This document shows positions 796-13,810 of a DNA stretch of 38,468 nucleotides, piece after piece. Position numbers and translations under genes: made by a program. Source of the stretch: Dehalococcoidia bacterium (lineage in GTDB: Bacteria > Chloroflexota > Dehalococcoidia > UBA2979). Position 1 is the first letter of the stretch. Each line of letters begins with the position of its first letter. Where the stretch lies: positions 1 through 38,468 of the forward strand of contig SCTU01000244.1 of NCBI GenBank assembly GCA_004297315.1, read 5' to 3'. A model generated the notes under the pieces. The model ran no database searches. It had not been told where the DNA came from and saw only the letters and a list, made by a program, of their open reading frames with translations.

Positions 796-1593
796 TCACC
801 TCGGAGCACGGCCCGCCGCCTCCGTCAACCAGAACTCGACGAAGATCGTGCCGTCGAAATTCGCGCCGGCCGTGTGCCCCTGGTTTGGGAACTCCACATA
901 GACCGACTTCACGCCAGCCGCCCGGAGCGTCTCGTGAGTCGCCCGTACTTCCTGCTTCCAGCCCTCATCGAGGGCTCCAACGCCGTTGAACACCGCGCGA
1001 CCGGCCATGGCTGCCGTCAGCGCGGCGGCGTCCATGGGCGCCAGTACCCCCGGTGCCCCAAGCAGCGTGTCGAATCGCTGTGGCTCGCGGACCGCGAGGC
1101 CGAATGCCACGAGGCCACCGTTTGAGACGCCCGCCAGATGCGTCGCGGACGGGCGTCCGTAGCAGGCGATCACCTCGTCGATGATCCGGTACGTGCGGCC
1201 CGCCTCACTGATGTAGTCATCTTCAACAACGGTGTAGGGCAGCACCACGCGGAACTCATCGATGCCGCGCGCCTTCGAGAGGTAGTTCGTCCATATGCGC
1301 ATCGCCGAGTTCCGGCGTCCGCTCCCCCCGCCGAGAAACACGACTAACGGTGCGTCGGGACGGTCGGGCATCGGGTCACGGATGAAATATGGGGCCTCGC
1401 CGACGTCCTTGATCTCACGCAACTCCCCGGGGAGGGCGGCGCTGCATCCACCTGCTCGCTGGTCCGAGGCGGCGGTCGGGGTTGACGGCTCGGACGGAGC
1501 GGCTGTCGGGGCCGAGGTACCCACCACCGGGGGGTTCGAGGCATCCGTTGCTGAGGAGCATGCCGTCGTGAACAGCAAGGCCGCACACGCCAT
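796..1593 (-). CDS. Alpha/beta-fold serine hydrolase (esterase-like) lipoprotein
   Basis: The track ORF 796..2130 is credible only from the ATG at 1591-1593. The upstream part is Arg/Pro-rich and overlaps the neighbouring gene. The N-terminus MACAALLFTTAC carries a lipobox. Further motifs are PLVVFLGGGSG, the nucleophile elbow G-V-S-N-G (LAGVSNGG) and a C-terminal NQGHT His. An alternative GTG start at 1677 has an AAGGGA Shine-Dalgarno. Confidence 0.7.
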   Translation of the reverse strand: MACAALLFTTACSSATDASNPPVVGTSAPTAAPSEPSTPTAASDQRAGGCSAALPGELREIKDVGEAPYFIRDPMPDRPDAPLVVFLGGGSGRRNSAMRIWTNYLSKARGIDEFRVVLPYTVVEDDYISEAGRTYRIIDEVIACYGRPSATHLAGVSNGGLVAFGLAVREPQRFDTLLGAPGVLAPMDAAALTAAMAGRAVFNGVGALDEGWKQEVRATHETLRAAGVKSVYVEFPNQGHTAGANFDGTIFVEFWLTEAAGRAPR

Positions 1594-1697: not shown

Positions 1698-2543
1698 TCA
1701 ATTCGCGATGGTCCGTCTGAGGCGAAACGGTGATGCGCCTTTCCACTGACGCCGAGCGTGATTCGCGACATTGCCGACCAGCAATGCGGCTGGGAGGAAG
1801 TAGACGATGCCGGTGGTCATGAAGAGGAGATATCCGATGCCGGCAACCAGTGCGCCGTACCAGATCTGATCGAAATACCTCGTCGGGCTCGTCGGAGGGT
1901 CGTCGAGTATGTAGCAAGCGAAGAAGACAGCCATGTGCACATCGGATGCGCCGAAGACCTCGGCCACTCTGACAGGGTCGGGGCCGAAAGCGGTGACGGT
2001 AAACAGGCTGAAGTACGTGCCGAGGAACGCGAGGACCAGCGGAAGTTTGTTGACGTGGTCGACGATCCAGATGCCTGGAAGCAGGATCAGCACCATCCCC
2101 GAGGGCCCGTATGCGGAAAGGCCGCCCCACCAGCTCTCGCCCTGGCCGAACATCAGATGGACGGCTACGAGGCCGACGATCGCCGGATTGAAGACGTTCG
2201 TGGTGCCGCTCCGGATCAGGTGCTTGGATGTCACGCCGATCGCCGCAGCCGCTGCCAGAACGTACGCCGGTGCGTAGGGGTCGAGCACGAGCGCGATGAC
2301 CAAGCCCGTAAGCAGAGCGCCGCTCGGGAACTCCGGCGCGCGACGCCAGGCCGCACGCAGAAGCGCGTCTATGGCTACCGCGGTGACCGCAGCCGCCGCT
2401 ACTCCCGGCATCGTCACGCTGAGGCCAGTCGCCACGGAGCCAATCGCCACGATCGCCCCGATGAAGATCAGCATGTAGCCCTTGGGCGATCGCAGTACAT
2501 GTCGTGCCGTGTGCATGGCTTCCGCCGCGTATGCCGCGTTCAC
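1698..2543 (-). CDS. NqrB/RnfD-family-like polytopic membrane protein (stand-alone)
   Basis: The 281-aa product is hydrophobic throughout. The segment LTGLVIALVLDP...IGVTSKHLIRSGTTNVFNPAIVGLV resembles the conserved TGLLLA...K...G.N.FNPA core of NqrB/RnfD. No [ST]GA[ST] flavinylation motif is visible. The GTG start overlaps the apbE stop (GTGA at 2540-2543). Confidence 0.6.
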   Translation of the reverse strand: MNAAYAAEAMHTARHVLRSPKGYMLIFIGAIVAIGSVATGLSVTMPGVAAAAVTAVAIDALLRAAWRRAPEFPSGALLTGLVIALVLDPYAPAYVLAAAAAIGVTSKHLIRSGTTNVFNPAIVGLVAVHLMFGQGESWWGGLSAYGPSGMVLILLPGIWIVDHVNKLPLVLAFLGTYFSLFTVTAFGPDPVRVAEVFGASDVHMAVFFACYILDDPPTSPTRYFDQIWYGALVAGIGYLLFMTTGIVYFLPAALLVGNVANHARRQWKGASPFRLRRTIAN

Positions 2544-3442
2544 GGGGCAGACCTGTCCAGGCCCGGCGTCGCTGTCATCTCGAACGAAGGATCGATGAGT
2601 AACGCTTCGGCGTCGTAACGAGCAATCAGTGGTAGCGCCCGCGCTGGGCCGAGCACGCAGGCGGCTGTAGCGAGCGCATCCGCGAGCATGCCACTGGAGG
2701 CGACGACGGTTGCGCTGATCAGTCCGTGTGCAGACTGGCCGGTCACGGGATCAAGCAGATGATGTCCCTCAGCAACGTCGGGTTGGGTGCGGAGATAACT
2801 GCCCGACGTGCACACCGCCGCGTCTCTTACCTCGAGAACCCGACACGCTGTTGCCGGGTCGCGCGGGTCGCGGACCTGGATTGGCCACGACGGAAGACCT
2901 GGCGGCGCCCCACGGACCAGGAGGTCGCCCCCGGCAGCAATCATGTGATTCGGGAACTTGTGCAGTTCCTCGCTCGCAAGGTCGATCGCAAAGCCCTTCG
3001 CCACGGCTCCGAGGTCGAGCGTCATCGCGGTCTCCAACGTAACTTTGCGGCGCGGCACGTCGATTGAGATGTCTCGGTACGACGCCGTGGCCTGACGAGA
3101 TTGCGGTGAAGACTCGACGCCGTCGCGATAGCCGTATCGGAAGCCAGCACGGATCATCGCGTCGCCCACAGTTGGGTCGAAGGCCCCCTCGCTCGCCTCG
3201 GCCATTCCGATCGCGAACTGAAGCAGGCGGAAGAGCAACGGGCTGACGGCGACGGGCACCCAGACCGTCGCGGAAAGCCGTGCCAGTTCACTGTCGCGGT
3301 CGAATCGGTTGCACGTCGTCTCGACGAGGTGAAACCAGTTGAAGGCGCGCGAGATCGCCTCGCGCGCCTTGCCCATGTCGCCGGGCGGCCAGACCTCAAT
3401 CGTGACGCCAGTGTCCATGAAGATTCGAAGCTGCCTGATCAC
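2540..3442 (-). CDS. apbE: FAD:protein FMN transferase (ApbE family), with no recognisable signal peptide
   Basis: ApbE-type motifs are present: IFMDTGVTIEV (the MGT-type core start at residue 9), FDPTVG, DLGAVAKGFA, AAGGDL and CTSGSY. The GTG start overlaps the stop of the upstream FMN_bind gene (GTGA at 3439-3442). No in-frame start lies further upstream in the ORF track. Confidence 0.85.
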   Translation of the reverse strand: MIRQLRIFMDTGVTIEVWPPGDMGKAREAISRAFNWFHLVETTCNRFDRDSELARLSATVWVPVAVSPLLFRLLQFAIGMAEASEGAFDPTVGDAMIRAGFRYGYRDGVESSPQSRQATASYRDISIDVPRRKVTLETAMTLDLGAVAKGFAIDLASEELHKFPNHMIAAGGDLLVRGAPPGLPSWPIQVRDPRDPATACRVLEVRDAAVCTSGSYLRTQPDVAEGHHLLDPVTGQSAHGLISATVVASSGMLADALATAACVLGPARALPLIARYDAEALLIDPSFEMTATPGLDRSAP

Positions 3443-3981
3443 TTCGAGGCCTTGACCAACGCGTCACTCACGGCCCGCACGTAGGCGCTGCTGCTGTCCG
3501 TTGCGCCGGTAACCCTCGTCACATGCAGGAGGTCCTGGAGTTCGACGACCTGCTCCTCGAGCGGCGCGATGCGGTCGCAGGGATAGCGCGTCCCGCATTC
3601 CGTGATCTGCGCGCCGACGATGAGTCCGCCGGCGATCACGACCTCGACGTCCACCGTGCCGTGAGGGCCGCGGCCCGCGCCGGCGAAGGTCCCGTCACGG
3701 TACGGCGACGGGGTAGACAACGGCGGCGGCGTAGGGCGCAATCCCGGAGTCCCTGGTACCAAAGAGGGCGCGGTCTGCGATGTTGCGCTCGCGAGCCGCA
3801 CGATCGTGTCGAAGTCACGGCGATCGTCAATTGACCGAGTCTGCGTGTAGCCCGCCGCATACACAGCGAGGATGGCCGACGAACTCAGCGCAACCAGGGA
3901 AGGTGAGACCTTACGCCGGCGTCGCGAAGAGGGCCGTGCCACGGGTAGTCCTGTCATCCGGCAATCGAGCGCCGATGCCAA
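3439..3981 (-). CDS. Membrane-anchored FMN-binding-domain protein (predicted ApbE flavinylation substrate)
   Basis: The N-terminus has an Arg run plus a hydrophobic anchor (SSRRRRKVSPSLVALSSSAILAVYAAGY), followed by a Pro-rich linker. The FMN_bind-like core is YRDGTFAGAGRGPHGTVDVEVVIAGGLIVGAQI ... VTRVTGATDSSSAYVRAVSDAL. TGAT matches the [ST]GA[ST] flavinylation motif. An alternative ATG start is at 3957. Confidence 0.8.
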   Translation of the reverse strand: MASALDCRMTGLPVARPSSRRRRKVSPSLVALSSSAILAVYAAGYTQTRSIDDRRDFDTIVRLASATSQTAPSLVPGTPGLRPTPPPLSTPSPYRDGTFAGAGRGPHGTVDVEVVIAGGLIVGAQITECGTRYPCDRIAPLEEQVVELQDLLHVTRVTGATDSSSAYVRAVSDALVKASK

Positions 3982-4008
3982 GTCGCGAGTTGCTCTGGGG
4001 CCGCACCG

Positions 4009-4557
4009 CTAGGGCGCGACCACGGTCAGCGTGCCCTTCAGGTCGGGGTGCAGCGGGTCGCTGACCTGGTACGTCCCTGGAGCCAGGGCATAGAAATGCA
4101 CGACGTCTACCTGCGTGCCGGCAGCGTAGGCGTGGACCTCCTTGAGCGTGGGCTTAACGCCACGCGGCGACGTCCCGCGCCACGCGACGAAATCCTTCGC
4201 ATGATGCTTCTCATGATCTTCCTCGGTGACACCCTCCTCGCGGACCACGTCCTCCTCTTTGGCCGCGAGCCAGAGGATCTCGGTCGCATCGAGGCCCACA
4301 ACGCGATAATGGAACTCGTCAGCACTTCGGTTGCGGAGAATCAATTGGATGCTGGGCCCGGCGGGTATGCGTACATCAGCAGGTTCATAGCCTTTCTCAG
4401 AGACGTCGATGTTGACGGTCACCGCTTCCGCGTCCTCGTCCGGCCGGTACGTGCCATCTCCGCCCGCGCCACAGCTCACGGCGACGAGGGCGACCGCCCC
4501 GAGGAGCGCGACCGCAAACGTGCGCATGATCACCCGTCGTCGCGAGTCCATTGCCAT
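4009..4557 (-). CDS. Cupredoxin-fold-like lipoprotein lacking the copper-ligand Cys
   Basis: A lipobox is present (LVAVSCG). The pattern VTVNIDVSEKGYEPADVRIPAGPSIQLILRNRSADEFHY ... PGTYQVSDPLHPDLKGTLTVV follows the cupredoxin_1 layout (F.P..i.v.aG..v.l...N.....H ... pGtY.f.C...gH..GM.G.l.V). The Cys and the terminal Met positions are substituted. The insertion EEGVTEEDHEKHHAKDF is rich in His and Glu. The start could instead be the ATG at 4551, which has better spacing to GGGGAG. Confidence 0.55.
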   Translation of the reverse strand: MAMDSRRRVIMRTFAVALLGAVALVAVSCGAGGDGTYRPDEDAEAVTVNIDVSEKGYEPADVRIPAGPSIQLILRNRSADEFHYRVVGLDATEILWLAAKEEDVVREEGVTEEDHEKHHAKDFVAWRGTSPRGVKPTLKEVHAYAAGTQVDVVHFYALAPGTYQVSDPLHPDLKGTLTVVAP

Positions 4558-4565
4558 CTCCCCGC

Positions 4566-5039
4566 CTACGACTGCTTGCCGAGGACTGCGAGATAGGCGA
4601 CGACCGCCTTGATCTCGTCATCAGTCAATTTCACGATCGACATCATGCCGACGGTGGCGAGCGCTTTCCGGACCTGCTCTTCGTCGGCACCCCGGTTCGC
4701 CGGCGCTCCGATGCAGCTGCTGCCCTTGCCGTCCATCCCGTGGCAGGCTGCGCAGCCCACGCCACCTGCGGTCTTCTCAAAGATCTCCTTGCCCCGGACC
4801 AGCACTGCATCCGCAGCGGTTGCCGCGGCCGGGTCGCTTGGCACCGGTGCTGATGCGGCGGCGGCTCCGCCCGGCGCTACGGATAGTGCCGCGATTCCGC
4901 CGCCGGGCCCAGAACTCGCTGGCTGCGACGTTCCGTCCCGGGACGCGGAGGCTGCGCCACCGCAGGCCGTCGCGATCACCATCGCCGCGACCGCAATCAG
5001 TCCCGGGACGAGGATCCTGCGAGCTGTGTGATCCTTCAT
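4566..5039 (-). CDS. Lipoprotein-tethered class I c-type cytochrome
   Basis: A lipobox is present (VIATACGG), followed by an Ala/Ser/Pro-rich linker. The heme motif is CAACH in TAGGVGCAACHGMDGKG, with a candidate distal Met in VGMMSIVKLTDDEI. The ATG at 5037-5039 is preferred over the TTG at 5060. Confidence 0.85.
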   Translation of the reverse strand: MKDHTARRILVPGLIAVAAMVIATACGGAASASRDGTSQPASSGPGGGIAALSVAPGGAAAASAPVPSDPAAATAADAVLVRGKEIFEKTAGGVGCAACHGMDGKGSSCIGAPANRGADEEQVRKALATVGMMSIVKLTDDEIKAVVAYLAVLGKQS

Positions 5040-5097
5040 GTCGTGACTCTTACGCGTCAACGTCTGGGGCTGGCCGAAACGGAGTGCTGATGGCGCG

Positions 5098-5568
5098 CTA
5101 TTGCCCGCCCAAGGACTTCACGAAGGCAGCAACGGCCACGATCTCGTCCTCAGACAACTTGATGAATCCCATGACCGGTACGCCGCCCGCCAGGGCTGCA
5201 CGGATCCTCGAGATGTCGGCGCCTCGGATGTTCGGGGCACCGAGCTTGGCGGCTCCGTCACCGCGAGCTTCCATGCCATGACACATTTGGCAGCCGACGC
5301 CGCCGGCGGTCTGCTGGAAGATGATCTGGCCCTTCGCGATGAGGTCCTTCTCAGGGTCGCCCGTGGAGGCGGGGGCGGTCGCGGGAGCCGTCGTCGAGGT
5401 TACGGGCGCAGACGTGGTGGTCGCTGTCGCTGCCGTCGCTGCCGTCGCCGACGCCTTCACGCCTGCGCCTGCCGTCTCGGCACTCCCGCTGCAGGCGATG
5501 GCTAGGGCAGCCATCGATGCGACGAGGCCGAGCAGGAGTGCGCGCGCGGGCTTGGTGTACATCTTCAT
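5098..5568 (-). CDS. Lipoprotein-tethered class I c-type cytochrome (paralog of 4566..5039)
   Basis: A lipobox is present (LAIACSGS), followed by an Ala/Thr-rich linker. The heme motif is CQMCH in TAGGVGCQMCHGMEARG, with a candidate distal Met in VPVMGFIKLSEDEI. The heme domain aligns by eye along its whole length with the neighbouring cytochrome. Confidence 0.85.
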   Translation of the reverse strand: MKMYTKPARALLLGLVASMAALAIACSGSAETAGAGVKASATAATAATATTTSAPVTSTTAPATAPASTGDPEKDLIAKGQIIFQQTAGGVGCQMCHGMEARGDGAAKLGAPNIRGADISRIRAALAGGVPVMGFIKLSEDEIVAVAAFVKSLGGQ

Positions 5569-5686
5569 CGTTGTGGCCTTCTCTTCCTGGACGTTCGGTC
5601 GCCGCCGAAAGCCAGGTGCGCCCCAGTCCAGCGGGGACCGGGGCGCCCTGGGCTACTTGCTTATCTGACTACCCGCGCGGTGCCTC

Positions 5687-7168
5687 CTATCGAGCCGGAG
5701 CCGGCGTGGCGGCAGCGGCTGCGACCGAGGCGGCGGCCGCCGCCTTCATCTTTGCCCACATGTCAGGCCCCGGAGTCGCGTGGTCGGCCATCTTGGTGCC
5801 GGCGCCGTCGGCCGCGTAGCTGACGAAGGCGCCAGAGTGCGTGTCACCACCGTACGAGACGGGAATCCGTGCCTTCACCTTGTTGGTGTTCAGGTCCAGG
5901 ACGATCGTCTCCCACGTGCCCGAGCTGCTGATCCACATCTCCGCCTTCGCGGGGTCCGGGTGCAGGATGCCGTGGTCGATGATCTGGCCACCAGTCTCGA
6001 TCGGCATCGGCACGTCCACATTGTTCGGGACGCTCATCGTCTTGGTGTTCATCACCGAGACGCCGCCACCGATGTTGTGCGTGCCTTCACCCTTGCCCAT
6101 GATGTAGAGCTTCGTCTGGTCCCAGCCGAGGCGGATGCCGTACGGGCCAGCCACGCCCGCGCTTCCCTTGGCGACCACGGCGTTCGTCGCCAGGTCGATC
6201 TTGTAGATCATGCTTCCGTGGCCGTCCGCGACGAAGAGGAACTTGCCGTCGGACGTGGCAGCGGTGCCAATCGGGTGGTTGCCCACCTCAGTGATCACCG
6301 TCACGCCGCCGGTCTTCAGGTCAAGCTTCGCGATGTTCGCCACATGCGCCGGAGCCTCGCGGATCCAGGCCGACCCCATCGAGATGAAGAGGTACTGCCC
6401 GGTCGGGTCTGCCGACACATACGGGTGTCCCATCGGAGCGATGTCGGCATCGGTGATGGCCTTGACGACCTTGTTGTCGTCCTTCGGGTCGAGCAAGAAG
6501 TACGGCCCGCCGGTCGCACCAAAGCCATACTCGAGCACCACGCGGTCCTTGCCTTCGAAGTCAACGAAGGAAGTGATGTGGTGGATGTCCTGTGAGCGGT
6601 CCTTGCCTTGGACCTTGCTCGACTGCCTCAGGACCTTGTCGAGTTTCAGCGTCTTCGCGTTGACGACGAGCGTGACGTGCTGTTGTACCTTCTTGTCGTC
6701 CTCGTAGACGTAACCGAGGTACGCCCACTGGCCGTCAGGCGATAGGCCCAGGCCGTGCGGCTGACGGACCGCAGTGCCGCCGAGGTCGAACAGCGCGGAG
6801 GCGATGCTCTCCTTGCTGTTTGCGTCGATCACCTGGATGCCGGGGAGTTTGTTGCTCTTGGACGGCCGGTGCGCGTAGCCCTGCCCGATGCTGGTGAAGT
6901 AGACGAGCGGGTGGGCCTTCATGTCCCACGCGTTGTTACCTTTGGAGTCGTATGTCGCGACGAGTTGTAGGCCGCCACGGAGGGACTCCTCGGTGTTCCA
7001 GCCAGATGCCGCCGCTCCGGCTGCCACCGGTTGGAGCTGGCCCGCCTGGACGATCTTCGTCGCCTCGGTCGACTTGGCCTCCTCCTTCTTCTCGGTGCAG
7101 GCTGCCGCCCCGAGCAGCGTCATCGCTGCCAGGACAACCAGCCCCACTCTGATCACTGGTTTCCTCAT
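5687..7168 (-). CDS. Secreted beta-propeller lipoprotein (YVTN/NosZ-like blade repeats, His-rich); function unknown
   Basis: The ATG at 7166-7168 is preceded by AGGAGG at 6-nt spacing. The lipobox is LLGAAAC. Repeated blade-start motifs are QPHGLGLSPDGQWAYL, MGHPYVSADPTGQYLF, GNHPIGTAATSDGKFLFVAD and GPYGIRLGWDQTKLYI, plus DIHHITSF, IIDHGILHPD and GGDTHSGAF. The C-terminal tail is Ala-rich. Confidence 0.7.
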   Translation of the reverse strand: MRKPVIRVGLVVLAAMTLLGAAACTEKKEEAKSTEATKIVQAGQLQPVAAGAAASGWNTEESLRGGLQLVATYDSKGNNAWDMKAHPLVYFTSIGQGYAHRPSKSNKLPGIQVIDANSKESIASALFDLGGTAVRQPHGLGLSPDGQWAYLGYVYEDDKKVQQHVTLVVNAKTLKLDKVLRQSSKVQGKDRSQDIHHITSFVDFEGKDRVVLEYGFGATGGPYFLLDPKDDNKVVKAITDADIAPMGHPYVSADPTGQYLFISMGSAWIREAPAHVANIAKLDLKTGGVTVITEVGNHPIGTAATSDGKFLFVADGHGSMIYKIDLATNAVVAKGSAGVAGPYGIRLGWDQTKLYIMGKGEGTHNIGGGVSVMNTKTMSVPNNVDVPMPIETGGQIIDHGILHPDPAKAEMWISSSGTWETIVLDLNTNKVKARIPVSYGGDTHSGAFVSYAADGAGTKMADHATPGPDMWAKMKAAAAASVAAAAATPAPAR

Positions 7169-7344
7169 GTCGCTCCTCCTCGCCTCCCCTTCGGCCATCC
7201 GAATGGTCAAGCGCAATCCCGTTACCAAGCGTTAGTACTCCGCCGTCGAGTGCGATCGTCGGGGCGCGGGTGCATGGCGAGAACACCAGAAATGGTGGGG
7301 GCCGATGTGGGGAGCGCTAGGGGGACGAGGCAACTGAGGAATGG

Positions 7345-8013
7345 TTACCGACGCAGATACCCGCGTTGCACCGCCCACGCCACCACTTCCGCGCGATTGC
7401 GGAGATGCAGCTTGCCGAAGATGTTCTTCAGGTGGAAGTTCACCGTGTTCTCGGAGATGCCAAGCCTGAGCGCGACTTCGCGGGTGCGCCCACCACGCGC
7501 GACCTCCGTGAGGACGTCTCGCTCCCGGGGCGTGAGACCAGACTCTTGGGGTGCCCCGACCGCGGCGTTCGCCCTGCCGACGTGCGTGAATTCATTGAGG
7601 AGGTTGCGCGCCAGTCGTGGCGAAATCACGGGCTCACCACGGCGCATTTGCTCCACGAACTTCTCGAATTCGTCCTCGGCAAGGTCTTTGAGCAGATAGC
7701 CCTCAGCGCCGCTCTTCACGGCCTCGAACAGGTCCCCCTCGTCGTCCGAGACAGTGAGGATCACCACACGCACCGCAGGCCATTCGGCCTTGATCGCGCG
7801 GGTCGCCTCAAGCCCGTTCATGTCGGGCATGCGGATGTCCATGAAGACGACGTCCGGGTGCAGTTGACGCACTGCCTCCACAGCGGCCGCACCATCCGCT
7901 GCCTCGCCTACGACTTCGAATTGCCACGCACGGAGCAGGGAAGCGAGCCCCGCGCGGATGAGCGCGTGGTCATCCACGAGAAGGACGCGGAGCGCATGGG
8001 GAGGCTCGGTCAT
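7345..8013 (-). CDS. NarL/FixJ (LuxR-type HTH) family response regulator
   Basis: The receiver domain shows LLVDDH...VVFMDIRMPDMNGLE...ILTVSDD. The C-terminal LuxR HTH shows LTPRERDVLTEVARGGRTREVALRLGISENTVNFHLKNIFGKL. The ATG overlaps the kinase stop (ATGA at 8010-8013). Confidence 0.9.
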   Translation of the reverse strand: MTEPPHALRVLLVDDHALIRAGLASLLRAWQFEVVGEAADGAAAVEAVRQLHPDVVFMDIRMPDMNGLEATRAIKAEWPAVRVVILTVSDDEGDLFEAVKSGAEGYLLKDLAEDEFEKFVEQMRRGEPVISPRLARNLLNEFTHVGRANAAVGAPQESGLTPRERDVLTEVARGGRTREVALRLGISENTVNFHLKNIFGKLHLRNRAEVVAWAVQRGYLRR

Positions 8014-9881
8014 CGCTCAATCGGCATCCTGACCACGACGCGGGTCCCCCGCCCGACGTGGCTCTCGATATCGAAAGTGCCTCCGGCGGCCTGTGCGCGT
8101 TCTCGCATCATCTGCAAGCCGAACCGCGGTCGCCCAGTGGCGGGCAGGGCCTCCGGATCGAAGCCAGCGCCGTCGTCGCTGACCTCGACGACCAACGTGT
8201 CGCAGTCGACCGACAGCCTCGTCTGGACAGAGGTGGCGACGGCGTGCTGCCGGACATTACTGAGCGCCTGCTGCACGATACGGATCAACTGGATCTCGCA
8301 GGTGGGAGTGCGCCGGACGCGCTCCACCTCCGGCGCTACCTCCAATACTGCATCGATGCCGAACATCTCCCGGTACGAGGTGATGTACTCCGCGAGTGCC
8401 GCCGTGAAGCCTTGTTCGCCTGGGGCCGAGCGCAGCGCAAGGATGTTGTCGCGCACATCGGCATAGAGCGAGCGGGCCGCCGCGTCGAGGTGTCGCAACT
8501 CCTCGAGCGCCGTGACCGTATTTCCGCTGTCCAGCAGTTTGCGCACCGCCAGCACCTGCGTGTTCACATAGCCCAAGATCTGCCCCATGCCATCGTGCAT
8601 CTCGCGCGAGATGCGTTCGCGCTCCTGCATGATAGAGACTTCCTGGATCTTCCGGTGCAGGTTGGCATTCTCGACGGCTGGCGCGATCTGATCGCCAATC
8701 GCATCGAGCAGGCTCAACTCGGAACGCCGCGACATCGAAGACGCCTCACTGGCCGCCAGCACCATCACACCGACGGAGCTACCGCGGAAACACAGCGGGA
8801 CCGCACAGCACACGCGATATCCCCGCGCGGTGAGGGCGTCGTTGAAGTCGGGCTCGCCAGCGACTACGCGGATCGTCTTACCCGTCACCGTCGCCCGTCC
8901 CAGGAGCCCCTTGCCATGGGGCGAGTGGGTGATATCAAGGAGAGGCTCGTTGACAGCATCGGCGCGGCAGTGCAAGACCAGTCCGTCGCCGCTCGAAAGC
9001 CAGATTTCGCCTTCGTCTGCCCTCGTGAGCTTCGTGACCGCGCTCAGCGCGCGCGCGAGCACATCGTCCAGGTCCAGGGAGGAGGAGGTGGCTGCCTGCA
9101 CGTCGAGCAGTGCCGAGAGTTCGCGGTTCTGTGCGACCGAAGCGTCATACAGCTCTGCGTTGTGGATCGCTAACCCCAGATGCTGTCCCACGCCATGAAG
9201 AAAGGCGTAGTCGTCATCATCAAATCGGTACTCACGCCGATAGGCCACGACGACGATGCCGTTCACCGCCCCAGAACACATCAGAGGGACGCTCACCCCT
9301 GACATGATGCCCTCCTTCGTGGAGATCGCGCGGACATCGGGGTCGCTGAGCACGTTGCCGAATCGGACTGGCTGGCCGCTCCGGACGACTTCGGAAGCGA
9401 TCACGTCTTCCGCGAGTTTGGCACGCTGGATGCGCTGCATGACCGCCGGGGAGAACCCGCGGGAACCGATGGCTGTGTGCTCCTCCTCGTCAGCGAACAG
9501 ACGGCAAACAAGACTCGCGTCCGCCCCGGTCGCCGCGACGATCTGATCGAGCCCGCGCCCGACCGTGGTCGCCAGGTCAAGGTTCTCGGAGGTTGCCGCT
9601 GCCAGACGGTTGAGTGCCTCGATCTGCGCTGAGCGCTTCGCTGCACGCGCCTCGAAACGGGCGATCTGGCGGAAGACCGAAAGTGCAAAAAAGCCGGCGC
9701 CCGCGGTCACGAGAAGCAAGGTCACTACAAACCCGAGCGGGCTCCGCCAGAGGCTATCCGCCGTGCTTCGCTGGGCGAACTCCAGCAACATAATGAACGC
9801 AACCGGGGCCACGATCGTCGTCCAGCGCAGGCGGCGAAGCTCCGATGCAAGCTTCTGTTGCCGAGGCAGGGTGATTTCCAT
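8010..9881 (-). CDS. Sensor histidine kinase with 2 TM segments, two GAF domains, HisKA_3 and HATPase_c
   Basis: Two N-terminal hydrophobic segments are separated by a very short loop. Two GAF-like blocks are visible (LDLATTVGRGLDQIV... and LDLDDVLARALSAV...). The H-box is REMHDGMGQILGY and the ATPase motifs are LSNVRQHA, DDGAGF and GLQMMRERA. The ATG at 9879-9881 has a GGAGGG Shine-Dalgarno. The track's longer start at 9947 is less supported. Confidence 0.85.
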   Translation of the reverse strand: MEITLPRQQKLASELRRLRWTTIVAPVAFIMLLEFAQRSTADSLWRSPLGFVVTLLLVTAGAGFFALSVFRQIARFEARAAKRSAQIEALNRLAAATSENLDLATTVGRGLDQIVAATGADASLVCRLFADEEEHTAIGSRGFSPAVMQRIQRAKLAEDVIASEVVRSGQPVRFGNVLSDPDVRAISTKEGIMSGVSVPLMCSGAVNGIVVVAYRREYRFDDDDYAFLHGVGQHLGLAIHNAELYDASVAQNRELSALLDVQAATSSSLDLDDVLARALSAVTKLTRADEGEIWLSSGDGLVLHCRADAVNEPLLDITHSPHGKGLLGRATVTGKTIRVVAGEPDFNDALTARGYRVCCAVPLCFRGSSVGVMVLAASEASSMSRRSELSLLDAIGDQIAPAVENANLHRKIQEVSIMQERERISREMHDGMGQILGYVNTQVLAVRKLLDSGNTVTALEELRHLDAAARSLYADVRDNILALRSAPGEQGFTAALAEYITSYREMFGIDAVLEVAPEVERVRRTPTCEIQLIRIVQQALSNVRQHAVATSVQTRLSVDCDTLVVEVSDDGAGFDPEALPATGRPRFGLQMMRERAQAAGGTFDIESHVGRGTRVVVRMPIER

Positions 9882-10029
9882 CGATTCCCTCCGCCCGACT
9901 CTAGCAGGGAGCCACGACCGAGGCGCTACCAGTTCTTGTGGGTTCAACTCTGTGCCCGAGCCCTAGGCTCGTCAGTATCACGACGTGGCTCCATCCGAGG
10001 CACGTGCCGCAAGGCCAGGAGAAGAACCA

Positions 10030-10260
10030 ATGCGATCAGCCGTCTTGCGGTCCGCAGCGCGGATGGCAACTGTGATTGGCGTCGCCGCTCTTGCGGCGCT
10101 CGCCCGTCCAAGTGTCGTCCTGGCCCATGACGGGGAGGATAAGTCGCTTTCGCATGTGCTCCTCGATGTGGGTGTGTGGAGCCTCGGTGCGGTCGCAGTA
10201 CTCGGACTGCTCGTCGCGGTCCTCTGGCTGAGGGCTCGGCGACGAGGACTCGACACGTGA
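10030..10260 (+). CDS. Small secreted, C-terminally anchored protein (76 aa) whose mature end is predicted to begin HDGED
   Basis: The ATG at 10030 has AGGAG 8 nt upstream. The signal-peptide-like N-terminus is MRSAVLRSAARMATVIGVAALAALARPSVVLA|HDGEDKSLSH. A C-terminal TM segment (VWSLGAVAVLGLLVAVLWL) is followed by RARRR. The stop overlaps a possible GTG start of the next gene. Confidence 0.45.
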   Translation: MRSAVLRSAARMATVIGVAALAALARPSVVLAHDGEDKSLSHVLLDVGVWSLGAVAVLGLLVAVLWLRARRRGLDT

Positions 10261-10277
10261 GCACCGGTGAGGGTCTG

Positions 10278-11705
10278 ATGGCTCCTCCCGCGCGGCAGCG
10301 ACTCCCGCTGCTCGGACGCATGTCATCCACCGCGTGGATCTTCGTTGGCCTGGTCGGCGTCACGCTGTCCGCCTGGCTCGCCCTCGCATACCTCTTCAGC
10401 GGCATGGGCGGCGGGACGAGCGTTGTGGAAACCCAACGCGTCATCAAGTCGCTGTCTAGCACGACCGCGAAGCATGGCGCGCTCGAGTTCCGGGCGGTCG
10501 CAGTGACGCCGGACTACTTCCGTGTGACCGACCGAGGTGACGAACTCTTCGCCCTAGACCCGAAGAAGAATCTCGCGACGATGGTGGATTCGCCGGAATA
10601 CTTCGACACCTTCAACAAGAGTTCGGCCGACCTCGGCGTCGACCCGGAGCGCTACCTCTCACTACTCGTCACCGTGGCCGTACACGAGGGTGATCTCCCC
10701 GCGACCGAGAGCTGGCTGGAGAGCATCGTCCTGAGGTCCGGAGACGTGGGCGTCGCGCCGCTGCCGGCGCATAAGGTTGCCTACCGCTCCGAACACCATG
10801 TGACGCTTGCCTTGCAGTTCCCTCGCAAAGACGAGAACGGTGTCGCACTGCTGAAGGAAGAAGGCCAACTGCGACTCGTCGCCCCCGGGTTCGCGCCCGA
10901 CCAAGAGCCGCTGGCGGTCTCATGGCAATTGCCGCTCGCCGACACGTCCGACGCGGGGGCGATCGGGGCCGGCGCAACGATGGGGGGCATGCTCGCCGTC
11001 TTCGCGGGCCTGCTTGTCATCTTCTCCCCTTGCGCGGTGCACATGACGGCGTACTTCCTGCCGATGATTACAGGTCTCGGCATGAAGGAGGTCCTGGACC
11101 GGACTGACGACATCCGTTTTCGAGCGCGGCTCATGTCGCTTGCGCTCGCCTTTGTGGGAGGCTTTGTCGTCCTGTACACGCTCTTCGGGGTTGCGGCCGG
11201 GTTCGCCGGCCAATTCTTCTCGGACACGGCGCGACTTGCCCCCTACGTGACGCCGCTGCGCATCTTCGCCGGCACGGTCGTGATCTTCATGGCGATGCAG
11301 ACGCTGGGCGTGTTCCGGCTGCCGTTTGTCTTGAACCTCGCGATACCGGGACGTCCGCATGCAGCAGGTGCGCGGGCTGGCTATTTCGCCGCGGTCGTGT
11401 CTGGGATGACTGTTTCGATGGGCTGCCTGACCTGTGTTGGTGGATCGCTACTCGCGGCGCTCCTCATCTACGCAGGCGCCTCGGGCTCGCCGATGACCGG
11501 TGGGCTGACGCTCTTCCTGTTCTCGTGCGGGATGAGCATCCCGTTCCTCGTTGCCGCGTTTGCCTTCCAGCGGGCGGTGCCGAAGTTCACGGGCGCGCGC
11601 CGGCTGCTGCGGTACTCCACGACCGCGGCGGCTGCACTCATGCTCGTGATGGGCTTGCTCATCATCAGCGGCAACGACTCAATTTTCGAGCGGCTCGTCC
11701 TCTAG
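10278..11705 (+). CDS. Fusion protein with an N-terminal TM, a ~200-aa extracytoplasmic domain of unknown family and a CcdA/DsbD-type (cytochrome c biogenesis) transmembrane thiol-reductant transporter
   Basis: The C-terminal half has 6 or more hydrophobic helices with the CcdA hallmarks LLVIFSPCAVHM (SPC in TM1) and SMGCLTCVGGSLL (the second Cys-containing helix). The N-terminal part has one TM (WIFVGLVGVTLSAWLALAYLF) and then a soluble domain with no motif I recognise. Alternative starts are a GTG at 10257 (GTGA overlap with the upstream stop) and an ATG at 10320. Confidence 0.7.
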   Translation: MAPPARQRLPLLGRMSSTAWIFVGLVGVTLSAWLALAYLFSGMGGGTSVVETQRVIKSLSSTTAKHGALEFRAVAVTPDYFRVTDRGDELFALDPKKNLATMVDSPEYFDTFNKSSADLGVDPERYLSLLVTVAVHEGDLPATESWLESIVLRSGDVGVAPLPAHKVAYRSEHHVTLALQFPRKDENGVALLKEEGQLRLVAPGFAPDQEPLAVSWQLPLADTSDAGAIGAGATMGGMLAVFAGLLVIFSPCAVHMTAYFLPMITGLGMKEVLDRTDDIRFRARLMSLALAFVGGFVVLYTLFGVAAGFAGQFFSDTARLAPYVTPLRIFAGTVVIFMAMQTLGVFRLPFVLNLAIPGRPHAAGARAGYFAAVVSGMTVSMGCLTCVGGSLLAALLIYAGASGSPMTGGLTLFLFSCGMSIPFLVAAFAFQRAVPKFTGARRLLRYSTTAAAALMLVMGLLIISGNDSIFERLVL

Positions 11706-13635: not shown

Positions 13636-13810
13636 CGCCGTCACCCTCCCCACCGCAGCCACCGAACGTGGGGTGGCGTGCCGCGCATGCTAGCGGACAG
13701 GCACACGAATCCGCGCGCCGGTCCCCCGGAGGAGGAGTCGGACCGCCGGCGGTAAACGAAGGGCGCCGCGCTCACGCGCGACGCTCTCGTTGGCTGGCGG
13801 CGAGAGGTCG

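What the first reader, a model, noticed from the sequence alone, without database searches (positions are those of the whole stretch)
1698..11705. Co-directional extracytoplasmic redox cluster that I cannot match to a described system: His-rich propeller, two tethered cytochromes c, Cys-less cupredoxin and an FMN_bind/ApbE/RnfD-like module, with a dedicated GAF-kinase/NarL pair and a divergent CcdA fusion
Seen in the sequence: nine genes run head-to-tail on the minus strand. The order is kinase 9881-8010, regulator, propeller, cytochrome c x2, cupredoxin-like, FMN_bind, ApbE and NqrB/RnfD-like. Start/stop overlaps occur at 8010-8013, 3439-3442 and 2540-2543, and the other gaps are short. An esterase-like lipoprotein follows on the same strand. 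A small secreted peptide gene and a CcdA-type gene diverge from the kinase promoter region. Every structural component except ApbE carries a lipobox or a membrane anchor, so the chemistry is predicted to occur outside the cytoplasmic membrane. Established knowledge: N2O reductase is a propeller (CuZ) plus a cupredoxin (CuA) domain. The NosR FMN-binding domain is flavinylated by the ApbE-family protein NosX. Clade II nos loci encode c-type cytochromes. CcdA supplies reductant for cytochrome c maturation. Inference: this locus has a nos-like parts list but differs in every detail. It has no nosDFY or nosL. The cupredoxin is a separate protein without Cys ligands. The membrane partner is NqrB/RnfD-like rather than NosR/NapH-like. 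ApbE lacks an export signal. The locus may therefore encode an uncharacterised extracytoplasmic (possibly copper-dependent) oxidoreductase with its own flavin/heme electron path.
Basis: partly seen in the sequence, partly recalled or inferred. Interest (0 to 1): 0.8.

Follow-up and report, generated by a model that had tools for sequence, protein, structure and literature searches.

The report
Uncharacterised histidine-ring propeller redox system
This Dehalococcoidia contig carries a conserved but unnamed set of genes for an enzyme outside the cell membrane, a beta-propeller lined with invariant histidines that works with its own cytochromes c; related loci add copper- and sulfur-handling genes, so it looks like a new, probably copper-based, respiratory enzyme family.

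Summary

The interpretation mostly holds, but the functional unit must be redrawn. Across 62 non-redundant orthologous loci from at least six phyla, the conserved core is:
- the propeller,
- a class-I cytochrome c, separate or fused to the propeller's C-terminus,
- a CcdA-like membrane protein with a His-triad ectodomain,
- often the His-rich cupredoxin.

The FMN_bind/ApbE/RnfD-like trio sits beside the propeller only here and in the closest relative. Elsewhere it is a free-standing module, a variant of the described 'Nqr/Rnf-like' complex that lacks the NAD-binding domain.

The propeller models confidently as about eight blades. It has seven or eight near-universal histidines, including one consecutive pair, placed at the entries of the inner strands.

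It matches no curated family. It scores 22 bits against L-NosZ (cutoff 700), does not hit the NosZ HMMs, and hhalign gives 8% against NosZ.

Related loci add SCO1 or YtkA copper chaperones (16 loci) and SufS/SufU or exported rhodanese (8 loci).

Best reading: a new extracytoplasmic multicopper, possibly Cu-S, oxidoreductase, probably a terminal reductase. Its substrate is unknown.

The parts
5687..7168 (-). Lipoprotein beta-propeller, 493 aa, about eight blades, with a ring of conserved histidines: H86, H138, H196-H197, H364, H399, H403 and H444 (plus H248 and H298 in the Chloroflexi/Acidobacteria subset). The mature protein has no Cys. Proposed catalytic subunit.
   Evidence: Strong Shine-Dalgarno sequence before ATG 7168. 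AF2 pLDDT 88, pTM 0.88, about 31 strands. His conservation. Only sub-threshold matches to curated families. More than 426 homologs at 90% clustering.
5098..5568 (-). Lipoprotein class-I cytochrome c (CQMCH), tethered by an Ala/Thr-rich linker. Proposed electron partner of the propeller.
   Evidence: Cytochrom_C 26.2 bits. Orthologs lie next to or are fused to the propeller in 26 of 31 loci.
4566..5060 (-). Second lipoprotein class-I cytochrome c (CAACH), a paralog of the first.
   Evidence: Cytochrom_C 31.9 bits and Cytochrome_CBB3 30.5 bits.
4009..4557 (-). Lipoprotein cupredoxin-like protein with conserved E81, H83, Y84, H115, H118, H142, D151 and H170. Asp167 sits where 11 of 20 orthologs have Cys (C-P-L-H-P). 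Proposed electron carrier or copper-handling protein.
   Evidence: Cupredoxin_1 43.7 bits. Ortholog alignment. Fused to the CcdA-like protein in Acidobacteria.
3439..3981 (-). Membrane-anchored NqrC/RnfG-like FMN_bind protein with a Pro-rich tether and the flavinylation motif VTGATDS.
   Evidence: FMN_bind 21.3 bits against a cutoff of 22. The motif and anchor are conserved in L001, L090 and L091.
2540..3442 (-). ApbE-family FAD:protein FMN transferase with no export signal.
   Evidence: ApbE 197 bits. No signal peptide in any of four module examples.
1698..2543 (-). Short (281 aa) polytopic NqrB/RnfD-like protein with no NAD-binding domain and no conserved flavinylation Thr.
   Evidence: PF03116 46.6 bits. 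More than 1400 homologs of about 280 aa. Motif analysis.
796..1593 (-). Lipoprotein with a GxSxG motif (GVSNG). It is weakly esterase-like, and whether it belongs to the system is uncertain.
   Evidence: Esterase 17.6 bits, below cutoff. Homologs near the propeller in L008 and L020.
7345..8013 (-). NarL/FixJ-type response regulator.
   Evidence: Response_reg 107.5 bits and GerE 63.8 bits. Paired with the propeller in 12 of 31 loci, mostly Chloroflexi.
8010..9881 (-). Membrane histidine kinase: 2 TM segments, two GAF domains, HisKA_3, HATPase_c.
   Evidence: The start at ATG 9881 is favoured by the Shine-Dalgarno sequence and by the operator motif at 9928-9940.
7284..7296 (-). Operator-like palindrome ACCATTTCTGGTG upstream of the propeller gene.
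   Evidence: One of only two exact matches to ACCAnTTCnnGTG in the 38 kb window. A related sequence lies at the same place in L001.
9928..9940 (+). Second copy of the operator-like motif (ACCAGTTCTTGTG), in the divergent promoter region.
   Evidence: An exact match lies at the equivalent place in L001 and L002.
10030..10260 (+). Small bitopic protein (76 aa): signal peptide, predicted mature N-terminus HDGED..LSH, C-terminal TM. Translationally coupled to the CcdA fusion.
   Evidence: Shine-Dalgarno AGGAGAAG and a GTGA overlap with the next gene. Ortholog in L001 with conserved LA|H..(D)..LSH.
10257..11705 (+). CcdA/DsbD_TM-type membrane protein (482 aa; NCBI locus tag EPO16_09980). It has an N-terminal anchor and a 185-aa ectodomain with invariant H170 and H207-H208, plus invariant Cys286 (PC) and Cys417/Cys420 (GCxTCxG). 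Residue numbers refer to the 509-aa ORF that starts at 10176.
   Evidence: DsbD_TM 62.4 bits. Conservation over 31 orthologs. Ectodomain AF2 pLDDT 89 with no significant PDB neighbour. Identity with P0241.

Best explanation
The locus encodes an unnamed extracytoplasmic metallo-oxidoreductase system. Steps are marked as shown or inferred.

Catalytic subunit. It is a lipoprotein beta-propeller. About eight blades each place a conserved histidine (one blade a consecutive HH pair, one a Tyr plus a loop His) at the entry of the inner strand. I infer that these form a multinuclear metal site in the hub, most likely copper and possibly sulfide-bridged. This is analogous to, but not detectably homologous with, CuZ of N2O reductase or the Cu3 site of thiocyanate dehydrogenase.

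Electron transfer. Two tethered class-I cytochromes c and a His-rich cupredoxin-like protein exchange electrons with the propeller.

Divergent operon. The small-ORF/CcdA-fusion operon is inferred to be the maturation or reductant-supply device. Its three invariant Cys carry reducing equivalents, or sulfane sulfur, across the membrane to a His-triad ectodomain. That domain would handle the metal.

Flavin module. In this organism the operon has additionally recruited a free-standing flavin module: cytoplasmic ApbE, a membrane-anchored FMN_bind protein and a short RnfD-like protein. I infer that it feeds electrons from the membrane or cytoplasm outward. That would make the propeller a terminal reductase of a small extracytoplasmic oxidant (N2O, NO or O2 class). 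The substrate is not determined.

Regulation. A GAF-GAF-HisKA_3 kinase and NarL-type regulator probably control both operons through a shared palindrome, ACCAnTTCnnGTG.
For: Shown:
- Gene content, overlaps and signals.
- The family is broad: Chloroflexota, Acidobacteriota, Acidimicrobiia, Alpha- and Gammaproteobacteria including Woeseiaceae, Trueperaceae and Tectomicrobia. There are 89 clusters at 50% identity with E<=1e-30, some of which are giant YVTN-repeat proteins rather than family members.
- Core synteny in 31 full-flank loci: cytochrome c 26 (fused in 7), CcdA-like 23, cupredoxin 13.
- Near-universal histidines over 58 members at 36-90% identity: H138, H196, H197 and H444 100%; H399 98%; H364 93%; H86 91%; H403 88%. 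The mature protein has no Cys.
- The AF2 model is confident. The histidines recur about every 50 residues at H-P or P-H-G motifs just before the first strand of successive four-strand units.
- The best structural neighbours are eight-bladed d1-type propellers.
- Copper: SCO1/SenC (159 bits in L048) in 11 loci and YtkA-like in 8, mostly on the same strand. A type-1 cupredoxin lies beside CcdA in L001, and two CuA-motif cupredoxins lie in L005.
- Sulfur: SufS-type desulfurase plus NifU_N in 4 loci, with overlapping stop/start codons onto the propeller gene in L027. An exported tandem rhodanese lies in the same operon-like run in 4 loci, directly after the CcdA or cupredoxin-fusion gene in L015 and L016, one gene further on in L060, and just upstream of the propeller in L053.
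- The cupredoxin is fused to the CcdA-like protein in Acidobacteria.
- Direction: non-homologous membrane electron modules sit beside the same core in different lineages. These are Nqr/Rnf-like here; a NrfC/NrfD-type pair plus extra cytochrome c in SAR202; a NapH/NosR-like protein in L005; PepSY_TM-flavodoxin-FNR plus DUF2271 in L061; and CydA-like plus cytochrome c in at least six Chloroflexi loci.
- Operator: the only two exact matches in 38 kb fall in the two promoter regions, and the motif is conserved in L001.
Against: - There is no direct evidence for any metal.
- I could not obtain model coordinates, so the clustering of the histidines in the hub is inferred from propeller geometry. It was not measured.
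- This window itself has no Sco, YtkA, SufS or rhodanese gene within 8 kb of the propeller.
- Its cupredoxin lacks the Cys that would make it a normal type-1 site.
- Sco proteins and CcdA also serve cytochrome oxidase and cytochrome c biogenesis.
- NrfCD-type modules can run in either direction.
- A Rhodobacteraceae isolate has three paralogs, two of them orphan propeller-cytochrome fusions. That pattern is more typical of dehydrogenases than of terminal reductases.
- The RnfD-like protein has no obvious cytoplasmic electron donor domain, and ApbE has no export signal although its target domain is predicted to be outside.
Confidence: 0.5

Rival explanations
1. The propeller is a substrate-oxidising dehydrogenase, like thiocyanate dehydrogenase or PQQ/quinohaemoprotein dehydrogenases. 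It would oxidise a small reduced compound, possibly a sulfur species, and pass the electrons through its cytochrome c and cupredoxin to the aerobic respiratory chain. The rhodanese would accept sulfane sulfur released in the reaction.
For: - C-terminal cytochrome c fusions and orphan fused genes with no membrane module occur in Rhodobacteraceae, which has three paralogs.
- Most host lineages are aerobes or microaerobes.
- Exported rhodanese lies adjacent in 4 loci.
- CcdA homologs are known in Sox sulfur oxidation (SoxV; own knowledge).
- TcDH is a Cu3 propeller that donates electrons to a cytochrome c (PMC9456337).
Against: - Cytoplasmic SufS/SufU in operon with the propeller has no role in oxidising a periplasmic substrate.
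- Four kinds of outward-directed membrane electron modules are recruited next to the core.
- TcDH is not among the top 50 Foldseek neighbours.
Confidence: 0.25
2. The system is a copper (or other metal) homeostasis or detoxification device rather than a respiratory enzyme. The His-ring propeller and His-rich cupredoxin would bind or oxidise periplasmic Cu(I). CcdA would act like ScsB. The kinase would sense metal stress.
For: - Copper chaperone neighbours.
- His-rich, Cys-poor proteins.
- TonB-dependent receptors adjacent in L048 and L009, and a cation-efflux gene in L009.
- The DsbD homolog ScsB is linked to copper tolerance (own knowledge).
Against: - The strictly conserved partnership and frequent fusion with cytochrome c argue for catalysis coupled to electron transport.
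- Quinol- or NAD(P)H-linked membrane modules sit next to the core.
- No CopA/CusA-type exporters or CueR/CopRS-type regulators were seen in the loci annotated.
Confidence: 0.1
3. The propeller binds an organic or tetrapyrrole cofactor or ligand in its hub, as NirN, NirF, NirS (haem d1) or BtuG (cobalamin) do. Alternatively it is a non-catalytic YncE-like binding protein.
For: The top Foldseek neighbours are NirN, NirF, NirS, YncE and BtuG.
Against: - TM-scores normalised to the query are only 0.43-0.48, with rmsd mostly 5.5-9 A across the named neighbours.
- There is no Cytochrom_D1 Pfam hit.
- Seven or eight near-universal histidines are not the d1 or B12 binding pattern (own knowledge).
- No d1 or cobalamin genes were seen in the loci annotated.
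Confidence: 0.07
4. The nine genes are a chance juxtaposition of three unrelated units: a two-component system, the propeller/cytochrome/cupredoxin genes, and the flavin trio. They have no common function.
For: The flavin trio occurs alone in other genomes and lies beside the propeller in only 1 of 31 full-flank loci other than this window.
Against: - The gaps are 8-37 nt from cytochrome c 1 to FMN_bind, followed by two 4-nt overlaps.
- The identical order is kept at 78% protein identity.
- No terminator-like site was found on the coding strand between the propeller gene and the RnfD-like gene.
- Another flavinylation-type module, DUF2271 plus PepSY_TM-FNR, lies beside the propeller in Rhodobacteraceae L061, and weak ApbE-like hits occur in L034 and L061.
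Confidence: 0.08

Closest known systems
Nitrous-oxide reductase NosZ (clades I and II) with its nos accessory genes
   Same: - Extracytoplasmic propeller with histidines from nearly every blade, one blade giving two consecutive His, seven ligands in all (PMC11573801).
- A cupredoxin and c-type cytochromes serve as electron path.
- An FMN_bind domain (NosR) is flavinylated by an ApbE protein (NosX).
- It needs copper chaperones and a sulfur supply.
   Different: - There is no detectable homology: no hit to TIGR04244 or TIGR04246, and hhalign gives 8%.
- About eight blades rather than seven.
- No fused CuA domain, and no Cys in the protein.
- No nosR, nosD, nosF, nosY or nosL in any ortholog locus examined.
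- A CcdA fusion, SufS/SufU or rhodanese are present instead.
Clade III lactonase-type N2O reductase (L-NosZ; He et al., Nature 2025; NCBIfam NF052460)
   Same: A recently recognised N2O reductase built on a YVTN/lactonase-type propeller. In some MAGs it lacks canonical nos accessory genes and has cytochromes nearby (PMC13477213).
   Different: - L-NosZ has a 7-bladed lactonase-type propeller with a fused cupredoxin (PMC11033732).
- This protein scores 22 bits against a cutoff of 700, which is lower than ordinary YVTN propellers score (86-109 bits).
- The host phyla differ.
Thiocyanate dehydrogenase (TcDH)
   Same: A copper cluster in the central tunnel of a propeller, with electron transfer to a dedicated class-I cytochrome c (PMC9456337).
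   Different: TcDH is seven-bladed. It is not among the top 50 structural neighbours. It is not known to be associated with a CcdA fusion or SufS/SufU.
'Nqr/Rnf-like' flavinylated two-subunit complex (Meheust et al. 2021, PMC8238504; Huang et al. 2024, PMC10979944)
   Same: - An NqrB/RnfD-like membrane subunit that lacks the flavinylation Thr.
- A membrane-anchored NqrC/RnfG-like FMN_bind subunit.
- ApbE in the same cluster.
   Different: - The described complex has a C-terminal NAD-binding domain (PF00175) on the RnfD-like subunit. This 281-aa protein, and more than 1400 relatives of about 280 aa, have none.
- ApbE has no export signal.
CcdA / DsbD / ScsB / SoxV thiol-disulfide transporters
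   Same: The DsbD_TM fold, with the PC motif in TM1 and a Cys in the second conserved motif.
   Different: - An extra invariant Cys makes a CxxC motif (GCxTCxG).
- The N-terminal ectodomain has no Cys, carries an invariant His triad and has no significant PDB neighbour.
- In Acidobacteria it is fused to the cupredoxin domain.
Cytochrome cd1 nitrite reductase and the NirN/NirF d1-type propellers
   Same: Eight-bladed extracytoplasmic propeller, cytochrome c domain fusion in many family members, best Foldseek neighbours.
   Different: No Cytochrom_D1 Pfam match. TM-score is at most 0.48. No d1 biosynthesis genes were seen.

Membership tests
NosZ (clade I/II N2O reductase) | Sequence match to NosZ models (TIGR04244, TIGR04246) or detectable profile homology | tested here: not met
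   Neither model hit at E<=0.1. hhalign of the family alignment against S. meliloti NosZ gave probability 8%.
NosZ (clade I/II N2O reductase) | Seven-bladed propeller whose hub is lined by seven His, including one consecutive pair (CuZ ligands) | tested here: inconclusive
   Seven or eight near-universal His, including the H196-H197 pair, sit at inner-strand entries. However, there are about eight blades, and no coordinates were available to measure clustering.
NosZ (clade I/II N2O reductase) | Fused C-terminal cupredoxin with the CuA motif C-x3-C-x3-H-x2-M | tested here: not met
   The propeller ends in an Ala-rich tail and has no Cys after the lipobox. The separate cupredoxin has no CuA motif.
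NosZ (clade I/II N2O reductase) | nosD, nosF, nosY and nosL (with or without nosR and nosX) in the locus | tested here: not met
   No NosZ, NosR or NosD homolog in the window or in any ortholog locus. Only NosX matches the ApbE (47 bits), and NosF gives generic ABC hits.
L-NosZ (clade III) | NCBIfam NF052460 at or above its 700-bit cutoff | tested here: not met
   22.4 bits over part of the protein. Generic YVTN propellers reach 86-109 bits.
L-NosZ (clade III) | Lactonase-type 7-bladed propeller fused to a cupredoxin domain (PMC11033732) | tested here: not met
   There is no fused cupredoxin, and about eight blades.
Thiocyanate dehydrogenase | Seven-bladed propeller with a Cu3 site; structural similarity to the solved TcDH | tested here: not met
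   TcDH is not among the top 50 Foldseek PDB matches. There is no PDB sequence or profile hit.
Cytochrome cd1 / NirN / NirF (haem d1 propellers) | Pfam Cytochrom_D1 (PF02239) | tested here: not met
   No hit at E<=0.1. Fold similarity is only TM 0.43-0.48.
YVTN / YncE propellers | TIGR02276 repeat or NF052280 above cutoff | tested here: not met
   TIGR02276 scored 24.2 against 27.85, and NF052280 scored 13.3 against 400. Blades 5 and 6 resemble YVTN repeats (1l0q, E 1.5e-18).
Nqr/Rnf-like flavinylated complex | NqrB/RnfD-like membrane subunit (PF03116) | tested here: met
   46.6 bits against a cutoff of 27.7.
Nqr/Rnf-like flavinylated complex | NqrC/RnfG-like FMN_bind subunit with an [S/T]GA[S/T] site, and ApbE in the cluster | tested here: met
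   FMN_bind scored 21.3 bits (cutoff 22) with VTGATDS conserved in four examples. ApbE scored 197 bits.
Nqr/Rnf-like flavinylated complex | [quoted passage not shown] | tested here: not met
   The protein is 281 aa with PF03116 only. Its relatives are about 260-300 aa.
Nqr/Rnf-like flavinylated complex | Flavinylation Thr of NqrB/RnfD not conserved (PMC10979944) | tested here: met
   The local 'GAS' is F-R-A-P-D in 110-117 of 121 homologs.
CcdA/DsbD thiol-disulfide transporters | DsbD_TM domain with the two conserved Cys | tested here: met
   PF02683 scored 62.4 bits. C286 and C420 are invariant, as is an extra C417, in 31 of 31 sequences.
CcdA/DsbD thiol-disulfide transporters | A thioredoxin-like periplasmic partner or domain | tested here: not met
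   There is none in the window. The ectodomain has no Cys. A thioredoxin-like gene lies nearby in only 5 of 62 loci.
DosS/DevS-type haem GAF sensor kinases | Haem-binding GAF-A domain | tested here: inconclusive
   The architecture is the same (GAF-GAF-HisKA_3-HATPase), but only the ATPase domain matches DevS/DosT structures.

The most novel reading that the evidence does not exclude
The His-ring propeller family would be a fourth class of N2O reductase (or another small N-oxide or O2 reductase), not detectably homologous to NosZ and split into separate parts. It would be built on a sulfide-bridged copper cluster. The propeller, cupredoxin and cytochrome c would be separate or variously fused. 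A CcdA-fusion relay with SufS/SufU or rhodanese would replace NosDFY as the sulfur and reductant supply, and Sco or YtkA would replace NosL. If so, abundant Chloroflexota, Acidobacteriota, Acidimicrobiia and Woeseiaceae would be unrecognised sinks.
Probability: 0.12. Interest if true: 0.95.

Novelty: new variant of a known kind. Interest (0 to 1): 0.78.

Why it matters
Propeller-hub copper enzymes are rare. As far as I know, NosZ and thiocyanate dehydrogenase are the only two well-characterised kinds. NosZ is regarded as the only known biological sink for N2O (PMC13122619).

This family has the same design logic: one histidine per blade with one HH pair, dedicated cytochrome c, a cupredoxin, and copper and sulfur logistics. 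It shows no detectable homology to either enzyme. It occurs in abundant soil, groundwater and marine-sediment lineages (SAR202, Vicinamibacterales, Woeseiaceae, Acidimicrobiia).

Whatever its substrate, it would add a respiratory or detoxifying activity that current marker-gene surveys miss.

It also offers a concrete candidate for an open question. How is sulfur or reductant delivered across the membrane to build an extracytoplasmic metal cluster? The candidate is a CcdA-type protein with an extra Cys and a His-triad ectodomain, found in operons with SufS/SufU or an exported rhodanese.

Finally, it shows that the short RnfD-like/FMN_bind/ApbE trio is a portable electron module. The trio is common, and I found no published study of it.

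Tried and rejected
- The primary L-NosZ paper (He et al. 2025) is not held in the library. Its defining features were taken from citing papers and from the NCBIfam model.
- PDB sequence and profile searches with the propeller found only generic YVTN or NHL blades.
- Foldseek gave only generic propellers with TM below 0.5, so it does not assign a function.
- No model coordinates are exposed. His-His distances could not be measured.
- The AF2 model of the CcdA ectodomain is confident but has no significant PDB neighbour (best E 0.03, partial Ig-like).
- The cupredoxin has no informative PDB relative.
- The kinase GAF domains show no sequence link to the DosS/DosT haem GAF domains.
- The sigma-70 promoter scan found nothing in this 66% GC sequence. 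No terminator-like hit falls in an intergenic gap on the coding strand of the structural operon.
- The 'GAS' tripeptide in the RnfD-like protein looked like a vestigial flavinylation site, but it is not conserved.
- The type-1 cupredoxin that lies beside CcdA in the closest relative is absent from this window.
- Four literature searches for the propeller/cytochrome/CcdA/cupredoxin combination found no description.
- The rest of the window holds unrelated metabolism and gives no respiratory context: luciferase-like monooxygenases, Fe-ADH, CoA-transferase and an SBP_bac_5 protein.
- A greedy ORF-based neighbourhood clustering lost short genes to spurious antisense ORFs in this high-GC DNA. Counts were therefore redone on stop-to-stop ORFs.

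Full report
**1. What is in the sequence**

The window is 66% G+C. It is identical to a whole 38,468-bp contig of an NCBI metagenome-assembled 'Dehalococcoidia bacterium'. The CcdA-type protein equals EPO16_09980, annotated 'hypothetical protein'.

- a membrane kinase with two GAF domains, HisKA_3 and HATPase_c (8010-9881)
- a NarL-type regulator (7345-8013)
- a 493-aa propeller (5687-7168)
- two single-haem class-I cytochromes c (5098-5568, 4566-5060)
- a Cupredoxin_1 protein (4009-4557)
- an FMN_bind protein (3439-3981; 21.3 bits against a cutoff of 22, flavinylation motif VTGATDS)
- ApbE (2540-3442; 197 bits)
- a 281-aa NqrB/RnfD-like protein (1698-2543; 46.6 bits)

The 4-nt overlaps at 8010-8013, 3439-3442 and 2540-2543 are real. 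From cytochrome c 1 to FMN_bind the gaps are 8-37 nt. Longer gaps of 176 nt and 118 nt lie before and after the propeller gene.

The propeller, both cytochromes and the cupredoxin each have an N-terminal hydrophobic segment ending in a lipobox-like xxxC. FMN_bind has one TM anchor. ApbE has no signal.

Diverging from the kinase is a 76-aa ORF (10030-10260) with a signal peptide, a predicted mature N-terminal His and a C-terminal TM. Its stop codon overlaps the GTG start of the CcdA-type gene at 10257.

The downstream 'esterase' (796-1593) has only sub-threshold hydrolase matches.

**2. The conserved unit is not the nine-gene string**

The propeller has more than 426 homologs at 90% clustering. 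Against 1.84 billion representatives it has 89 clusters at 50% identity with E<=1e-30, some of which are giant YVTN-repeat proteins rather than family members. Sources name them 'hypothetical' or 'YncE family'.

Hosts span Chloroflexota (Dehalococcoidia, SAR202), Acidobacteriota (Vicinamibacterales), Acidimicrobiia, Rhodobacteraceae, Woeseiaceae and other Gammaproteobacteria, Trueperaceae and Tectomicrobia.

The closest relative (78% identity) keeps the entire arrangement. In 31 non-redundant ortholog loci with at least 4 kb on each side, the counts are as follows:

| Neighbour of the propeller | Loci (of 31) |
|---|---|
| Cytochrome c (fused to the propeller C-terminus in 7) | 26 |
| CcdA-like gene | 23 |
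| His-rich cupredoxin | 13 |
| GAF kinase | 11 |
| NarL-type regulator | 12 |
| FMN_bind / RnfD-like | 1 |

In Acidobacteria the whole system is two genes: a propeller-cytochrome c fusion and a cupredoxin-CcdA fusion.

**3. The flavin trio**

The short RnfD-like protein has more than 1400 relatives of about 280 aa. In complete genomes, FMN_bind-like, ApbE and short RnfD-like genes form a free-standing three-gene module with no propeller nearby.

[quoted passage not shown]. As in that complex, the RnfD-like subunit lacks the flavinylation Thr. Unlike it, there is no C-terminal NAD-binding domain.

In all four examples inspected, ApbE has no signal peptide, although its target domain sits behind an N-terminal TM anchor and a Pro-rich tether. 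This remains unexplained. Export after cytoplasmic flavinylation is one possibility, and the RRRRK stretch before the anchor is compatible with it.

**4. The propeller**

AlphaFold2 with a 56-sequence alignment gives pLDDT 88 and pTM 0.88, with about 31 strands. The strands group into eight four-strand units. The last unit is completed by the two N-terminal strands.

Conserved histidines recur about every 50 residues, at or just before the first strand of successive units:
- H86-P
- P-H138-G
- H196-H197
- H248-P
- H298-P
- Y343, with H364 in the GKGEGxHN loop
- H399 and H403
- H444

Over 58 full-length members at 36-90% identity, conservation is as follows:

| Residue | Conserved in |
|---|---|
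| H138, H196, H197, H444 | 100% |
| H399 | 98% |
| H364 | 93% |
| H86 | 91% |
| H403 | 88% |
| H248 | 62% |
| H298 | 52% |

The mature protein has no Cys.

From canonical propeller geometry, these positions surround the mouth of the central channel. This is an inference, because no coordinates were available.

The pattern parallels CuZ of N2O reductase. There, every blade but one gives a His and one blade gives two consecutive His, seven in all (PMC11573801). It also parallels the Cu3 site in the tunnel of thiocyanate dehydrogenase (PMC9456337).

Homology, however, is not detectable:
- No hit to the NosZ HMMs.
- hhalign against S. meliloti NosZ gives 8%.
- 22 bits against the L-NosZ model with its 700-bit cutoff. 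Ordinary YVTN propellers score 86-109 bits.
- No PDB sequence hit beyond YVTN blades.
- The Foldseek neighbours are eight-bladed NirN, NirF and NirS plus YncE and BtuG, at TM 0.43-0.48 only.

**5. Accessory proteins**

*Cupredoxin-like protein.* It conserves E81, H83, Y84, H115, H118, H142, D151 and H170. The residue before P-L-H170-P is Cys in 11 of 20 orthologs and Asp or Glu in 9, including this one. Part of the family therefore probably has a type-1-like site, and this copy is a natural Cys-to-Asp variant.

*CcdA fusion.* It keeps the canonical PC Cys (C286) and has an invariant GC417-x-T-C420-x-G. Its Cys-free ectodomain has invariant H170 and H207-H208. The ectodomain models confidently as a helical insert plus an Ig-like sandwich, with no significant PDB neighbour.

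**6. What related loci add**

*Copper chaperone genes* lie within 8 kb in 16 of 62 loci. SCO1/SenC occurs in 11, for example in the Woeseia/Gammaproteobacteria operon propeller - cytochrome c - CcdA - second YncE-like propeller - SCO1. YtkA-like proteins occur in 8.

*Sulfur-trafficking genes* lie on the same strand in 8 loci. A SufS-type desulfurase plus NifU_N follows the CcdA gene in three Chloroflexi loci. In an acidobacterial locus the pair precedes the propeller-cytochrome fusion with overlapping stop/start codons. An exported tandem rhodanese (lipobox or Tat signal) follows the CcdA or cupredoxin-fusion gene directly in two loci, lies one gene further downstream in a third, and precedes the propeller in a fourth.

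*Other items:*
- L001 has a classical type-1 cupredoxin beside CcdA.
- L005 has two stand-alone CuA-motif cupredoxins and a NapH/NosR-like protein.
- SAR202 has a NrfC/NrfD-type pair with an extra cytochrome c.
- Rhodobacteraceae L061 has DUF2271 plus PepSY_TM-flavodoxin-FNR.
- At least six Chloroflexi loci have a divergent operon with a CydA-like protein and a cytochrome c.
- No NosZ, NosR or NosD homolog occurs in any locus.

**7. Regulation**

The palindrome-like motif ACCAnTTCnnGTG has only two exact matches in the 38 kb. One is at 7284-7296, upstream of the propeller gene. The other is at 9928-9940, in the divergent promoter region.

It recurs at the equivalent place in the closest relative. 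This fits one regulator controlling both operons. It also supports ATG 9881 as the kinase start.

**8. Most likely mechanism**

*Shown.* There is a conserved, exported propeller with a periodic histidine set. It is obligatorily partnered with cytochrome c and a specialised CcdA-type protein. It recurrently neighbours copper chaperones, sulfur-mobilising proteins and varied membrane electron modules.

*Inferred.* The histidines bind a multinuclear copper centre, possibly sulfide-bridged. SufS/SufU from the cytoplasm, or a periplasmic rhodanese, would be alternative solutions to the same sulfur need. The CcdA fusion supplies reductant or sulfur and, through its His triad and the cupredoxin, handles copper. 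The cytochromes c, with or without the cupredoxin, carry catalytic electrons.

Different lineages attach different outward-directed or quinol-linked modules. I therefore favour a terminal reductase (about 55:30 over a dehydrogenase). The substrate is open; N2O, NO or O2 are the natural candidates for a His-only copper cluster.

*Counter-evidence.*
- There are no metal data.
- This window has no chaperone or sulfur genes near the cluster.
- Orphan fused paralogs occur in a Rhodobacteraceae isolate.
- NrfCD-type modules are reversible.

**9. Comparison and novelty**

Functionally the system resembles a nos system, part for part. It fails every testable membership criterion for NosZ, L-NosZ, TcDH and cd1-type proteins. 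Only the flavin trio and the CcdA TM domain belong to described families, and each is a variant.

Four literature searches for the propeller/cytochrome c/CcdA/cupredoxin combination found no description of it.

I rate it a new variant of a known kind, namely propeller-hub metallo-oxidoreductases with dedicated cytochrome c. It has a real but unproven chance of being a new N-oxide reductase class.

Noticed in passing
window 7284-7296 (-) and 9928-9940 (+); L001 6229-6241: A shared palindrome-like motif, ACCAnTTCnnGTG. Its only two exact matches in the window fall in the two promoter regions of the cluster, and it is conserved in the closest relative. It is probably the operator of the NarL-type regulator.
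   Followed up: partly
window 10030-10260 (+); L001 5907-6140: A small conserved bitopic protein with a predicted mature N-terminus starting with His (ALA|HDGED..LSH). It is translationally coupled (GTGA) to the CcdA fusion. It could be a small metal-binding partner.
   Followed up: partly
L013, L018, L063, L027 (SufS + NifU_N); L015, L016, L053, L060 (exported tandem rhodanese): Sulfur-mobilising genes lie in the same operon-like run as the propeller and CcdA genes in eight loci from four phyla. In L027 the stop and start codons overlap onto the propeller-cytochrome c fusion.
   Followed up: partly
L003, L008, L013, L015, L016, L020 (divergent from the propeller gene): A conserved Chloroflexi block: small Cupredoxin_1 protein, unknown protein, CydA-like (Cyt_bd_oxida_I), cytochrome c, Usp/PCP_red, and in most of these loci a radical-SAM protein. 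It may be another electron-input module. It is absent from this window.
   Followed up: no
L005 3096-5860 (Symbiobacteriaceae-labelled MAG): Two stand-alone membrane-anchored cupredoxins with a perfect CuA motif (C-x3-C-x3-H-x2-M), a type-1 cupredoxin and a NapH/NosR-like Fer4_5 protein lie next to the propeller's regulator genes.
   Followed up: partly
window 4009-4557, residue 167; alignment of 20 orthologs: A natural Cys/Asp dimorphism at the putative copper-ligand position of the cupredoxin. It reads C-P-L-H-P or C-D-L-H-P in 11 orthologs and mostly D-P-L-H-P in 9, including this one.
   Followed up: partly
window 2540-3442; L001 12719-13654; L090 5041-5988; L091 5121-6050: ApbE has no signal peptide in every example of the FMN_bind/ApbE/short-RnfD-like trio, although the FMN_bind domain appears to be extracytoplasmic. 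In L090 and L091 the trio follows a Peptidase_M28 gene.
   Followed up: partly
L029, L030, L042 (Rhodobacteraceae bacterium Alg231_30, an isolate genome): Three paralogs of the propeller-cytochrome c fusion occur in one cultured strain. Two are orphan genes with no conserved neighbours. This is a possible genetic model.
   Followed up: no
L048, L052, L053 and other proteobacterial loci (10 in all): A second, shorter YncE-like propeller (about 370-400 aa) accompanies the CcdA fusion in 10 proteobacterial loci. In the Woeseia and Gammaproteobacteria operons it follows the CcdA gene and precedes SCO1. A TonB-dependent receptor lies immediately upstream in L048, and one lies downstream in acidobacterial L009.
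   Followed up: no
L010 (JACQPP010000111.1): A 60%-identical propeller locus is labelled 'Methanobacteriota archaeon'. Its neighbours are of the Chloroflexi type, so the bin assignment is probably wrong.
   Followed up: no
window 12634-13662, 13811-15049, 24655-25752, 30880-32181: The rest of the contig holds luciferase-like monooxygenases, an Fe-ADH, a family-III CoA-transferase and an SBP_bac_5 protein. No denitrification or oxidase genes were seen.
   Followed up: partly
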